Source: a virus (lineage: Duplodnaviria > Heunggongvirae > Uroviricota > Caudoviricetes). From it: a stretch of DNA of 42,271 nucleotides. The notes beneath the pieces are model-generated. The model saw only the letters and a program-made list of their open reading frames with translations. It did no database searches and was not told where the DNA came from. This document shows positions 36,081 through 36,410 of the stretch, in pieces (position 1 is the stretch's first letter; every line of letters begins with the position of its first letter). The DNA lies in the IMG/VR virus record IMGVR_UViG_2718218308_000003, positions 1-42,271 of that record. One strand, given 5' to 3'. Made by a program: the position numbers and the translations under genes.

Positions 36081-36257
36081 GTGGGAATAGTTAGAAATCA
36101 AGCAGATATATTGAAAATCAGCTCTGAATTGCTTGGAGTTTTGAAAAGTGAGCTCACCGCACATGGCATCGAGCCCACTGACGAAAATTTAAGTTGGGTT
36201 TTGTCGATTATTCAACAATCACTCAAGCCCAGCCTCAGCAAACTTTTTATCGAGTAG
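36081..36257 (+). CDS. Hypothetical small protein (about 58 aa from a GTG start)
   Basis: GTG at 36081 preceded by AGGGAGG. Its 3' end overlaps a convergent small ORF. Confidence 0.3.
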   Translation: MGIVRNQADILKISSELLGVLKSELTAHGIEPTDENLSWVLSIIQQSLKPSLSKLFIE

Positions 36258-36410
36258 TGCTTCGAACTTATCGTAAAGCTTGCTTATGTCGTCTATCGGG
36301 TTTTCTGACGTACTGTAATTTTTATCTGATGTCATGGCAGCAGTCTGATATGCAGTGTGAGTCTTAACCGATAGTTGGAATAAATAAAGAATTTTTTCTT
36401 CTTTGGTCAT
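36219..36410 (-). CDS. Hypothetical small acidic protein (63 aa), antisense within the early operon
   Basis: ATG at 36408-36410 preceded by GAAGGAAA at good spacing; AT-rich. Confidence 0.35.
   Translation of the reverse strand: MTKEEKILYLFQLSVKTHTAYQTAAMTSDKNYSTSENPIDDISKLYDKFEALLDKKFAEAGLE

What the first reader, a model, noticed from the sequence alone, without database searches (positions are those of the whole stretch)
36081..36410. Convergent, 3'-overlapping pair of small ORFs just downstream of the early promoter
A plus-strand ORF of about 58 aa (GTG start with an AGGGAGG Shine-Dalgarno) and a minus-strand 63-aa ORF (GAAGGAAA Shine-Dalgarno) overlap by 39 bp at their 3' ends. Expression of one would create antisense RNA to the other, an arrangement seen in some small toxin-antitoxin or regulatory switches. 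Only one may be real.
Basis: seen in the sequence. Interest (0 to 1): 0.35.

Follow-up and report, generated by a model that had tools for sequence, protein, structure and literature searches.

The report
Conserved convergent two-gene prophage cassette
Both small overlapping genes are real and always travel together in a swap-prone slot next to the repressor of e14/SfV-like prophages: one is read from the repressor-controlled early promoter and the other probably from its own promoter on the opposite strand, which suggests a lysogeny/lysis-coupled gene pair whose function is still unknown.

Summary
ORF A runs 36081..36257 (+, GTG start, AGGGAGG SD) and ORF B runs 36410..36219 (-, ATG start, GAAGGAAA SD). 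They overlap by 39 bp.

Both frames stay open in every diverged lineage, while the other frames carry stops. Both show purifying selection: pN/pS is 0.36 for A and 0.23 for B. They co-occur in 73 of 73 loci. The pairing holds even where the A domain is fused behind other N-terminal modules.

A is the first intact gene behind a promoter that carries CI operators. B sits 32 nt behind an invariant TGnTATnnT element. That element precedes at least 36 unrelated cargo genes in related prophages and is found in 851 of 5426 complete E. coli genomes. A conserved stem-loop specific to the minus strand lies inside A, 3' of B.

The positional equivalent in E. coli K-12 e14 is ymfJ/ymfI. That pair is a published RNA-seq excludon, and ymfJ is SOS-induced.

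No toxin-antitoxin, defence or other known family matches either protein. The best reading is a lysogeny/lysis antisense gene pair. A protein-level partnership is possible but unproven.

The parts
35132..35806 (+). cI-type repressor gene (HTH plus LexA/S24 peptidase family), 224 aa. This is context: it defines the immunity region.
   Evidence: ORF. The near-identical genes are annotated 'cI repressor' in SfV and SfII and 'LexA family protein' ymfK/cohE in K-12 e14.
35818..35837 (+). Intrinsic terminator after cI
   Evidence: Terminator scan: 8-bp stem followed by a T run. Annotated as a terminator in SfV and SfII.
35846..35890 (+). PL-type early promoter TTGACA-16-CATAAT (35846-35873). A CI-operator-like palindrome lies at 35852-35870, with a weaker site at 35872-35890.
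   Evidence: The promoter matches 11 of 12 positions. The pattern ATGTACC-N5-GGTACAT gives 7 window matches against 1.3 expected. Three lie in the cI-cro intergenic region and two lie at this promoter.
35884..35957 (+). Conserved structured leader RNA at the 5' end of the early transcript. Function unknown, and no Rfam family matches.
   Evidence: RNAalifold on 17 diverse copies: 7 of 13 pairs show compensatory changes. The covariance model scores 91.6 bits here and finds nothing in the HK022 stretch searched.
35979..36047 (+). Remnant of the SfV orf33-type gene (the first 21 codons match SfV orf33, followed by one further codon and a stop). It is a scar from a cassette swap.
   Evidence: Matches the start of SfV orf33 (L002 2680 onward).
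36069..36257 (+). ORF A with its Shine-Dalgarno (AGGGAGG 36069-36075). The CDS is 36081..36257, 58 aa, with a GTG start. It is a small acidic helical protein and the stand-alone form of a roughly 45-aa domain (phrog_15476).
   Evidence: - The frame is open in all lineages.
- pN/pS is 0.36, 95% CI 0.26-0.47.
- The start is ATG at the same codon in the five most diverged of the eight aligned lineages.
- The domain is found in frame at the C-terminus of 92-201-aa proteins.
- AF2 predicts three helices with pLDDT 77.
36139..36179 (-). Conserved stem-loop specific to the minus strand (stem 36147-36179) with a short U-rich tail. It lies 40-72 nt 3' of the B stop codon, inside the A coding sequence. 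It is a candidate terminator or 3'-end structure for the B mRNA.
   Evidence: - Mean dG over 13 lineages is -18.0 on the minus strand and -11.3 on the plus strand.
- 93.7% of cells are paired, against 29-59% when the partner is slid.
- Three pairs show compensatory changes.
- An invariant G.U pair, plus further wobble pairs, would be A.C mismatches on the plus strand.
- The simple terminator scan does not call it.
36219..36410 (-). ORF B, 63 aa, ATG start. It is a small acidic helical-hairpin protein (phrog_2605), annotated as SfII_36 and WP_000159356.1.
   Evidence: - The frame is open in all lineages.
- pN/pS is 0.23, 95% CI 0.16-0.31.
- Homologues reach down to 43% identity.
- AF2 predicts two helices with pLDDT 77.
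36411..36480 (-). Conserved block upstream of B.
- SD GAAGGAAA: reverse complement of 36417-36424.
- Extended -10-like TGgTATCTT: reverse complement of 36443-36451.
- -35-like TTTTCA: reverse complement of 36467-36472.
- Inverted repeat ACCAC-N10-GTGGT.

This is the inferred promoter and 5' UTR of B, and the right-hand boundary of the cassette.
   Evidence: - The motif is found in more than 120 IMG/VR contigs.
- The sequence to its left falls into 36 unrelated clusters.
- TGG plus TAT[N][C/T]T is present in 36 of 36 cluster types.
- A minus-strand ORF of at least 40 aa starts 24-36 nt after it in 33 of 36.
- The block is present in 851 of 5426 complete E. coli genomes.
36491..36713 (+). STnc100-family prophage sRNA ending in a strong hairpin plus U run. 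This is context, the downstream neighbour of the cassette.
   Evidence: Rfam RF02076, 49.1 bits against a gathering score of 47. Literature: bioRxiv 10.64898/2026.05.13.724894.
36849..37211 (+). yfdP-family gene, the first conserved gene of the early-left operon after the variable slot. This is context.
   Evidence: ORF. Pfam PF27127 (YfdP) hits the equivalent genes in related loci, and PGAP names it 'protein YfdP'.

Best explanation
**What it is.** The two ORFs form one conserved two-gene cassette. It sits in a hypervariable accessory slot of e14/SfV/SfII-like lambdoid prophages, between the CI-repressed early-left promoter with its leader RNA and the STnc100/yfdP part of that operon.

**How each gene is expressed.**
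- ORF A is the first intact gene on the early (PL) transcript. It would therefore be silent in the lysogen and made as soon as CI is inactivated.
- ORF B faces the other way. It is driven by its own promoter-like block (TGnTATnnT, then about 30 nt, then SD and ATG). Many unrelated cargo genes in related phages share this block.
- The B transcript ends at or beyond a conserved stem-loop that lies inside the A coding sequence. The two mRNAs are therefore antisense to each other over at least about 110 nt.

**Proposed mechanism.** The likely consequence is reciprocal expression of the excludon or noncontiguous-operon type: B is on and A is off in lysogeny, then PL transcription overrides B and produces A on induction. 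The A domain and B are never found apart, so I infer that the two products act in one pathway. The most likely form is that A modulates or neutralises B when the prophage goes lytic.

**Status of each step.**
- Shown computationally: both genes code for protein, are co-inherited, lie behind CI-operator and promoter-like signals, and flank a minus-strand stem-loop.
- Inferred: the activity of the B promoter, the antisense interference, and any A-B protein interaction.
For: **Coding status**
- Both frames alone stay open in 8 lineages and in 5 more distant ones.
- Substitutions are in excess at third codon positions.
- pN/pS is 0.36 for A and 0.23 for B, with bootstrap P(ratio >= 1) = 0. The value for A is still 0.385 when the stem-loop codons are removed.
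- In the five most diverged of the eight aligned lineages the A start is ATG at the position of the window's GTG; a purine-rich SD-like stretch precedes it in the alignment.

**Linkage**
- HMMs for the A domain and for B hit exactly the same 73 loci, with none carrying only one.
- B homologues at 43-54% identity still have a convergent A-like partner, overlapping by 21-27 nt.
- The A domain is fused in frame behind a phrog_1744-like module (P0041) or a zinc-finger module (P0051). In both cases it is still paired with a B-family gene (hmmsearch 2e-30 and 4e-22) and with the block.

**Signals**
- The PL promoter carries operator-like palindromes that match those between cI and cro.
- The block is invariant across 36 cargo types, with fixed spacing to the cargo ATG.
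- The stem-loop is specific to the minus strand and shows covariation.

**Analogy**
- K-12 e14 has the same repressor gene (identical length, near-identical sequence), terminator, PL, leader, block and STnc100. At this slot it carries the convergent pair ymfJ(+)/ymfI(-), overlapping by 63 bp.
- ymfI-ymfJ is listed as a convergent excludon (PMC12288877).
- ymfJ is induced late in SOS and YmfJ protein is detected, while ymfI responds weakly (PMC11002266).
- ymfJ belongs to the YmfT iModulon and ymfI does not (PMC12132413).
- The tha/ith system of S. aureus phage 80alpha is an experimentally shown case of the same logic (PMC11087260).
Against: - There are no expression data for this cassette itself. 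The B promoter is only a conserved consensus-like element, and it fell below the simple promoter scan threshold.
- The stem-loop has only a short U tail and is not called as a terminator. A second terminator-like hairpin on the minus strand lies further on, at 35910-35894.
- The strict co-occurrence could be explained by physical interlocking alone, because the B 3' end and stem-loop lie inside the A domain. No functional partnership would then be needed.
- Neither protein resembles any toxin, antitoxin, defence or anti-defence family.
- A complex prediction could not be run.
- A 5'-UTR hairpin with compensatory changes overlaps the proposed -10 element and transcription start. This leaves the exact start site, and even the strand on which the block acts, uncertain.
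Confidence: 0.55

Rival explanations
1. Two independent genes are merely interlocked. Both A and B are real proteins, but they have unrelated functions. They are always found together only because the B 3' end and stem-loop lie inside the A-domain coding sequence, so recombination cannot separate them. Any antisense effect is incidental.
For: - The physical overlap of 15-45 nt and the B-side stem-loop inside A make the A domain plus B a single recombination unit.
- Cassette boundaries fall just upstream of the A domain and at the block.
- By the same mechanical criterion, about 55% of long ORFs have some convergent ORF overlapping their 3' end, so this geometry is common.
Against: - The A domain extends about 60 nt beyond the stem-loop. 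That part is also under protein-level selection (pN/pS 0.385 without the stem-loop codons).
- In-frame fusions to at least three different N-terminal modules keep the domain translated.
- The same rule holds for an unrelated cassette: the C-terminal module of the plus-strand protein goes with the minus-strand cargo. The YmfJ C-terminus goes with ymfI-type cargo even behind a phrog_1744-like N-module.
Confidence: 0.25
2. Only B is a gene. A is an open frame kept by constraints on the B 3' UTR, terminator and overlapping codons.
For: - RefSeq/PGAP and the SfII GenBank record annotate only B.
- The wobble-aligned antisense frame gives the same low pN/pS as frame A, which is a known artefact.
- A conserved RNA stem-loop lies inside A.
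Against: - Frame A is the only frame without stops in all 8 lineages, and the antisense frame with the low ratio carries stops.
- The start codon and its position are conserved.
- Selection persists outside the stem-loop and outside the overlap.
- The domain occurs as the in-frame C-terminus of longer ORFs of 92-201 aa.
- Other gene callers and PHROGs already recognise it.
Confidence: 0.04
3. It is a type I-like toxin-antitoxin system. One mRNA, or its 3' UTR, acts chiefly as an antisense RNA that silences a toxic partner, as in txpA/RatA or bsrG/SR4, where toxin and antitoxin RNAs overlap at their 3' ends in prophages.
For: - The transcription units are convergent and overlap at their 3' ends, with at least about 110 nt of predicted complementarity.
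- The location is in a prophage.
Against: - Both partners are under protein-level purifying selection.
- Neither protein has a hydrophobic or transmembrane segment. The longest purely hydrophobic run is 3 residues, and the pI values are 5.2 and 5.0.
- There are no hits in PADLOC, Pfam or NCBIfam.
Confidence: 0.08
4. The conserved block is not the B promoter. It would instead be an element of the plus-strand early transcript, or of the rightward sRNA genes: for example a processing or stability structure, or part of the STnc100-type promoter. B would then be transcribed from elsewhere, or only weakly.
For: - The block can fold into two adjacent hairpins on either strand. One of them shows compensatory changes and would overlap the proposed -10 element and start site.
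- The Rfam STnc100 match starts only about 10 nt beyond the block.
- Folding energies on the minus and plus strands are similar: -16.9 against -15.9.
Against: - The block goes with the minus-strand cargo whatever lies to its right (STnc100 or other sequences).
- The TGnTATnnT motif is kept in 36 of 36 types, although its last three bases lie in otherwise variable sequence.
- The cargo ATG is at a fixed 24-36 nt distance in 33 of 36 types.
Confidence: 0.15

Closest known systems
ymfJ / ymfI of the E. coli K-12 e14 cryptic prophage
   Same: - The genomic slot and flanks are the same. The CI-type repressor (cohE/ymfK) has the same length and near-identical sequence. The terminator, PL with operators, leader RNA, conserved block and STnc100 match those in the window.
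- The geometry is the same: the plus gene is first on PL, and the minus gene lies behind the block with a 3' overlap of 63 bp.
- Published data fit the proposed logic. ymfI-ymfJ is listed as a convergent excludon (PMC12288877). ymfJ is induced late in SOS, while ymfI is not co-regulated with it (PMC11002266, PMC12132413).
   Different: - The proteins are unrelated in sequence to A and B: 102 and 113 aa against 58 and 63 aa.
- The function of ymfJ/ymfI is also unknown, so the analogy informs regulation only.
tha / ith noncontiguous operon of Staphylococcus aureus phage 80alpha (PMC11087260)
   Same: - A prophage accessory protein and its partner are encoded on opposite strands next to the lysogeny switch.
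[quoted passage not shown]
   Different: - There, the defence gene rides on the cI transcript and the inhibitor has its own constitutive promoter. Here, the promoter-bearing gene B faces the CI-repressed PL, and the PL gene A would be the lytic-phase partner.
- There is no sequence or fold similarity. Tha is a HEPN RNase, while A and B are helical proteins of about 60 aa.
- No phenotype is known here.
Convergent excludons (overlapping 3' transcription of neighbouring genes)
   Same: - The genes are convergent.
- The 3'-end structure of one gene is embedded in the other gene.
- Synteny is conserved.
   Different: - An excludon is defined by measured overlapping transcripts, and none are available for this locus.
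- Here even the coding sequences overlap, by 39 bp, and the pair behaves as a mobile cassette.
Type I toxin-antitoxin pairs with 3'-overlapping RNAs (txpA/RatA, bsrG/SR4)
   Same: - The units are convergent with a 3' overlap.
- The location is in a prophage.
- The ORFs are small.
   Different: - Both partners here are conserved proteins.
- Neither is a hydrophobic membrane peptide.
- There is no non-coding antitoxin RNA.
Phage morons and prophage accessory or defence hot spots (P2/P4 hot spots; BstA next to the repressor; lambda rexAB, HK022 nun, sieB)
   Same: - A variable slot lies beside the immunity region and holds many alternative small cargo genes, each with its own promoter, oriented independently of the surrounding operon.
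   Different: - Here a single invariant promoter-like block is shared by at least 36 unrelated cargos and marks the recombination boundary.
- Cargo genes typically come with a cargo-specific C-terminal module of the opposing early gene.
- None of the cargos examined matches a known defence family.

Membership tests
Type I toxin-antitoxin (3'-overlap class) | Toxin is a small hydrophobic or membrane peptide | tested here: not met
   A has pI 5.2 and B has pI 5.0. The longest run of purely hydrophobic residues is 3 in each. AF2 predicts soluble helical hairpins.
Type I toxin-antitoxin (3'-overlap class) | Antitoxin is a non-coding antisense RNA | tested here: not met
   Both strands carry ORFs under protein-level purifying selection.
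Type I toxin-antitoxin (3'-overlap class) | Convergent transcription units complementary at their 3' ends | tested here: inconclusive
   The geometry and the stem-loop position predict complementarity of at least about 110 nt. The transcripts themselves were not observed.
Type II toxin-antitoxin | Two co-directional, co-transcribed genes | tested here: not met
   The genes are on opposite strands.
Type II toxin-antitoxin | Recognisable toxin or antitoxin domains | tested here: not met
   No Pfam, NCBIfam or PADLOC family matches. There are no PDB sequence hits or Foldseek hits.
Convergent excludon | Convergent neighbouring genes whose transcripts overlap, with the terminator of one lying inside the other unit | tested here: inconclusive
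   A conserved minus-strand stem-loop lies inside A, but it is not a canonical terminator and there is no RNA-seq for this locus. The positional equivalent ymfI-ymfJ is listed as an excludon.
Convergent excludon | Mutually exclusive expression of the two genes | not testable with these tools
   This needs strand-specific transcriptomics of the lysogen with and without induction.
Phage moron (applied to B) | An autonomous unit of own promoter, gene and terminator, inserted between phage genes | tested here: inconclusive
   A promoter-like block is conserved across 36 cargo types, and a 3' stem-loop is present. Both are predictions only.
Phage moron (applied to B) | Presence or absence varies between otherwise similar phages | tested here: met
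   SfV, e14 and SfII share the flanks but carry different cassettes. The A/B cassette is in 62 complete E. coli genomes, while the block is in 851.
PHROG families phrog_15476 (A) and phrog_2605 (B) | Significant full-length match to the family profile | tested here: met
   A matches at 7.4e-50 over 1-68 of 68 positions. B matches at 1.4e-33 over 1-63 of 69 positions. Both families are of unknown function.
HK022 put-type antitermination RNA (considered for the PL leader) | Sequence or structure homology to putL/putR | tested here: inconclusive
   BLAST finds no similarity, and the covariance model built from the leader finds nothing in HK022 24-32 kb. However, the position of putL/putR within that stretch was not confirmed, and the test runs one way only.

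The most novel reading that the evidence does not exclude
**The pair.** A and B would be an effector-antidote pair of a new kind. B would be a small protein made in the lysogen that interferes with incoming phages or with a host process. The A domain would be its cognate neutraliser, placed under direct CI control as the first early gene, so that the prophage disarms its own weapon the moment it is induced.

**The slot.** More broadly, the slot would be a large, unrecognised reservoir of such paired modules in enterobacterial lambdoid prophages. Its features are:
- a portable promoter block shared by at least 36 cargo types;
- early-gene C-terminal modules that track the cargo;
- presence in about 16% of complete E. 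coli genomes and in K-12 e14.
Probability: 0.2. Interest if true: 0.75.

Novelty: new variant of a known kind. Interest (0 to 1): 0.5.

Why it matters
- **Missing gene.** It adds a conserved protein-coding gene (A) that RefSeq/PGAP and the SfII record leave out. It also shows that the neighbouring 'hypothetical protein' (B) is half of an obligate pair.
- **Unstudied slot.** It places the pair in a well-defined accessory slot beside the immunity region of e14/SfV-like prophages that I found described in none of the papers searched. The slot is marked by an invariant promoter-like block and is filled by dozens of unrelated small genes.
- **Testable in K-12.** The same slot in K-12 e14 holds ymfJ/ymfI, so the regulatory logic can be tested directly in the best-studied bacterium.
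- **Possible payoff.** If the cargos turn out to be exclusion or defence factors with early-gene antidotes, the slot would be a new place to mine for such systems. It would also be a Gram-negative counterpart of the tha/ith principle.

Tried and rejected
1. **Programmed frameshift or pseudoknot at A_AAT_TTA (36184-36190).** This was prompted by near-perfect nucleotide conservation of 36182-36250 in the close lineages. I dropped it because the more distant lineages do not conserve that stretch, and the -1 frame ends after 12 codons.
2. **HK022 put homology of the PL leader.** BLAST and a covariance model found nothing in HK022.
5. **Pfam, NCBIfam and PADLOC for A, B and the SfV pair.** No families matched.
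6. **The claim that nearly all cassette types carry a convergent overlapping plus ORF.** 26 of 31 do, but the same mechanical criterion gives about 55% for ordinary long ORFs. I use this only as weak support. The verified cases are A/B, e14 ymfJ/ymfI, and SfV orf33 with the 81-aa minus ORF.
7. **dN/dS alone to choose the strand.** The wobble-aligned antisense frame gives the same ratio, so I used stop-codon counts, start conservation and in-frame fusions instead.
8. **Supplementary tables of the ExcludonFinder paper, for ymfI/ymfJ transcript ends.** They are not held. The e14 analysis paper PMC331406 is not held either.
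Full report
**Context**

The window carries a lambdoid prophage of the SfII/SfV/e14 type.
- Bases 35800-36860 match Shigella phage SfII at 98.5% identity. They match SfV, SfIV and several E. coli phages in pieces.
- A 224-aa CI-type repressor gene (35132..35806, +) is followed by an intrinsic terminator (35818-35837).
- Next comes the only strong sigma-70 match in the region, TTGACA-16-CATAAT at 35846-35873.
- The palindrome ATGTACC-N5-GGTACAT occurs three times between cI and cro, once between the -35 and -10 hexamers of this promoter (35852-35870, one mismatch), and once more weakly just after it. That is 7 window matches against 1.3 expected.
- The promoter is therefore a CI-operated PL-type early promoter. 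tRNA-Thr at 40828-40903 is consistent with a prophage end nearby.

**The observation**

- ORF A is 36081(GTG)..36257, 58 aa, with AGGGAGG at 36069-36075.
- ORF B is 36410(ATG)..36219, 63 aa, with GAAGGAAA as the reverse complement of 36417-36424.
- The two overlap 3' to 3' by 39 bp (36219-36257).

**Are they genes?**

I collected relatives in three ways: with both proteins, by exact-protein look-up, and independently of either ORF through a flanking DNA motif. I then compared eight distinct lineages at 75-85% nucleotide identity, from E. coli/Shigella, Atlantibacter, Kluyvera, Klebsiella and metagenomes.
- In the part of A that B does not overlap, and in the part of B that A does not overlap, the called frame has no stop in any lineage. 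No other frame is stop-free in all eight, and most carry 1-5 stops.
- Substitutions at codon positions 1/2/3 are 40/24/65 for A and 27/16/71 for B.
- Nei-Gojobori pN/pS is 0.36 (bootstrap 95% CI 0.26-0.47) for A and 0.23 (0.16-0.31) for B. Shifted frames give about 1-2.
- The wobble-aligned antisense frame mimics the low ratio, which is a known artefact, but that frame contains stops.
- In the five most diverged of the eight aligned lineages the A start is ATG at exactly the position of the window's GTG, preceded by a purine-rich SD-like stretch. The upstream ATG at 36051 is not conserved.

A profile search of 1.8 billion representative proteins found the roughly 45-aa core of A as the in-frame C-terminus of longer proteins of 92-201 aa. 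These carry at least three different N-terminal modules: phrog_1744-like, phrog_1363-like, and a ClpX-like zinc finger. This is independent evidence that the frame is translated. Both ORFs are therefore real. RefSeq/PGAP and the SfII record annotate only B.

**They are an obligate pair**

- HMMs for the A domain and for B hit exactly the same 73 of about 190 fetched loci, with none carrying one without the other.
- Of 120 loci retrieved only through the flanking motif, 6 have the cassette, and all 6 have both genes.
- B homologues down to 43-54% identity still face a convergent A-like ORF, overlapping by 21-27 nt.
- Where the A domain is fused behind other modules (P0041 in L190, P0051 in L192), the gene on the opposite strand is again B-family (2e-30 and 4e-22), with overlaps of 45 and 15 nt.
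- The cassette occurs next to repressors of several different types, so it moves between immunity groups.

**Signals around the pair**

Upstream of B lies a roughly 70-nt block that is almost invariant.
- Its core motif ATACCACCNNGCCTGANGTGG occurs in more than 120 IMG/VR contigs. The block is present in 851 of 5426 complete E. coli genomes, whereas the A/B cassette is in 62.
- The DNA to the left of the block falls into 36 unrelated clusters.
- On the minus strand, every one of the 36 types has TGG followed by TAT[N][C/T]T, an extended -10 pattern. In 33 of 36, a minus-strand ORF of at least 40 aa starts 24-36 nt further on, most often at 31-34 nt.
- I therefore read the block as a shared promoter plus short 5' UTR that drives interchangeable cargo genes against the direction of PL.
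- This is an inference. The element is below the simple promoter-scan threshold. A hairpin with compensatory changes overlaps the proposed start site, so the exact start, and a possible role of the block on the plus-strand transcript, remain open.

Downstream of B on the minus strand, 40-72 nt after its stop and inside the A coding sequence (36147-36179), lies a stem-loop.
- It is conserved in all 13 lineages. Mean dG is -18.0 kcal/mol on the minus strand against -11.3 on the plus strand.
- 93.7% of cells are paired, against 29-59% with slid partners. Three pairs show compensatory changes, and an invariant G.U pair, plus wobble pairs at other positions in some lineages, would be A.C mismatches on the plus strand.
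- Its U tail is short, and the simple scan does not call it a terminator. It is thus a candidate terminator or 3'-end structure.
- A further terminator-like hairpin on the minus strand lies at 35910-35894.
- Either way, a B transcript would be antisense to at least the conserved part of A.

**The slot**

- SfV has, between the same flanks, a different convergent overlapping pair: orf33 (98 aa, +) and an unannotated 81-aa minus ORF, overlapping by 83 bp.
- The window still carries the first 21 codons of orf33 as a scar (35979-36047; one further codon, then a stop). Some phages carry both cassettes in tandem, each with its own copy of the block.
- E. coli K-12 e14 has a repressor gene of identical length and near-identical sequence, and the same terminator, PL, leader, block and STnc100. 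At the slot it carries ymfJ(+)/ymfI(-), which overlap by 63 bp.
- The plus-strand genes are mosaics. Their N-terminal modules recur across cassette types, while the C-terminal module goes with the minus-strand cargo. The A domain goes with B. The YmfJ C-terminus goes with ymfI-type cargo, even behind a phrog_1744-like N-module.
- A mechanical count finds a convergent overlapping plus ORF in 26 of 31 types. The baseline for ordinary long ORFs is about 55%, so this adds little.

**Published data on the K-12 equivalent**

- ymfI-ymfJ is listed among 165 convergent excludons found in at least half of 58 MG1655 transcriptomes (PMC12288877).
- ymfJ is induced late in the SOS response (log2 fold change 4.0-4.8) and YmfJ protein is detected. 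ymfI changes little (PMC11002266).
- ymfJ is in the YmfT iModulon with the other CI-controlled e14 genes, and ymfI is not (PMC12132413). ymfJ is the top gene induced in a dam mutant (PMC11741368).
- These data fit 'plus gene from PL, minus gene separately'. They concern a different cassette.

**What the proteins are**

Both are acidic (pI 5.2 and 5.0), soluble, and lack hydrophobic segments. AlphaFold2 with shallow alignments predicts helical hairpins at pLDDT about 77. Pfam, NCBIfam, PADLOC, PDB sequence profiles and Foldseek against PDB and BFVD give nothing significant. PHROGs places both in families of unknown function. The SfII genome paper lists SfII_36 (B) only as a unique hypothetical protein (PMC3772137). 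Function is therefore unknown.

**Mechanism proposed**

A is made from the CI-repressed early promoter. B is made from its own promoter on the other strand. The two RNAs are antisense, so expression should be reciprocal and tied to the lysogeny/lysis decision. The closest demonstrated precedent is tha/ith in S. aureus phage 80alpha, where a prophage defence protein and its inhibitor are encoded antisense and switched by transcriptional interference (PMC11087260).

The strict co-inheritance, and the rule that the C-terminal module tracks the cargo, make a protein-level partnership attractive, with A neutralising or modulating B on induction. Physical interlocking of the two genes could explain the linkage by itself.

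My confidence by claim:
- about 0.9 that both genes are real and form one cassette;
- about 0.5-0.6 for the reciprocal antisense arrangement;
- about 0.2-0.25 for an effector-antidote relationship.

**Comparison and novelty**

The pair fails the defining features of type I toxin-antitoxin systems (hydrophobic toxin, RNA antitoxin) and of type II systems (co-transcription, known domains). It fits the geometry of a convergent excludon and of a moron, but the transcript-level criteria could not be tested.

It is a new variant of a known kind of arrangement, built from two uncharacterised protein families. It sits in an accessory slot with a portable promoter-like boundary. I found no description of this slot in the literature I could search, though that search covers only open-access papers.

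Noticed in passing
window 35884-35957 (+): A roughly 74-nt structured RNA lies at the very 5' end of the PL transcript and is conserved in many related prophages, including K-12 e14. The outer helix and an internal hairpin show compensatory changes in 7 of 13 pairs. There is no Rfam family, and no match to the HK022 put region by BLAST or by a covariance model built from it. Its position, immediately after an early promoter and before terminators, resembles that of antitermination RNAs.
   Followed up: partly
window 36411-36480; loci L061-L180: An invariant block of about 70 nt, including TGnTATnnT on the minus strand, marks the right edge of a hypervariable slot. At least 36 unrelated cargo clusters lie to its left, including zinc-ribbon proteins, predicted membrane proteins and small helical proteins. 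The block is present in 851 of 5426 complete E. coli genomes. Some phages (L017, L021, L028, L029) carry two cassettes in tandem, each with its own copy of the block.
   Followed up: partly
L002 (SfV) 2894-3139, minus strand: SfV has an unannotated 81-aa minus-strand ORF (MTFDEKELDN..., phrog_3311). It converges on orf33 and overlaps it by 83 bp, and it lies behind the same block. A diverged homologous pair occurs in L129.
   Followed up: partly
window 36491-36713 (+); L181 2600-2911 (K-12 ymfH); L001 3146-3484 (SfII_35): The STnc100-family sRNA (Rfam RF02076) occupies the DNA that is annotated as protein ymfH in K-12 e14 and as SfII_35 in SfII. In the window, long ORFs at 36524..36751 and 36531..37211 run across it. 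These protein annotations may be spurious.
   Followed up: no
window 35979-36047 (+): There is a truncated copy of the SfV orf33-type gene (its first 21 codons, one further codon, then a stop). It is a scar showing that the A/B cassette replaced an orf33-type cassette by recombination inside that gene.
   Followed up: yes
loci L131, L122, L171, L179, L070, L175; proteins P0041-P0053: The first early-left genes are mosaics. Several N-terminal modules recur across cassette types: phrog_1744-like 'EPxI..G.SNEEL..W', a YmfJ-N type 'ELKHVIALLLEDAKRLQ', a zinc finger, and a phrog_1363-like module. The C-terminal module tracks the opposite-strand cargo.
   Followed up: partly
window 35894-35910 (minus strand): A terminator-like hairpin followed by a T-rich tail lies on the minus strand within the PL leader and is also present in e14. 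It could stop leftward transcripts, such as one from B, before they reach PL and cI.
   Followed up: no
window 2264-2331 (-) and 40828-40903 (-): There is an int-alpA RNA match (Rfam RF02996, 45.5 bits) near the start of the window, and a tRNA-Thr(CGT) gene near the end. The tRNA is probably the attachment-site tRNA of the prophage.
   Followed up: no
L190 1323-1814: In one relative, a SieB-family (PF14163) superinfection-exclusion gene lies immediately upstream of the A-domain fusion gene. The K-12 excludon list also contains sieB-ydaF of the Rac prophage. This hints that exclusion genes near immunity regions are often arranged convergently.
   Followed up: no
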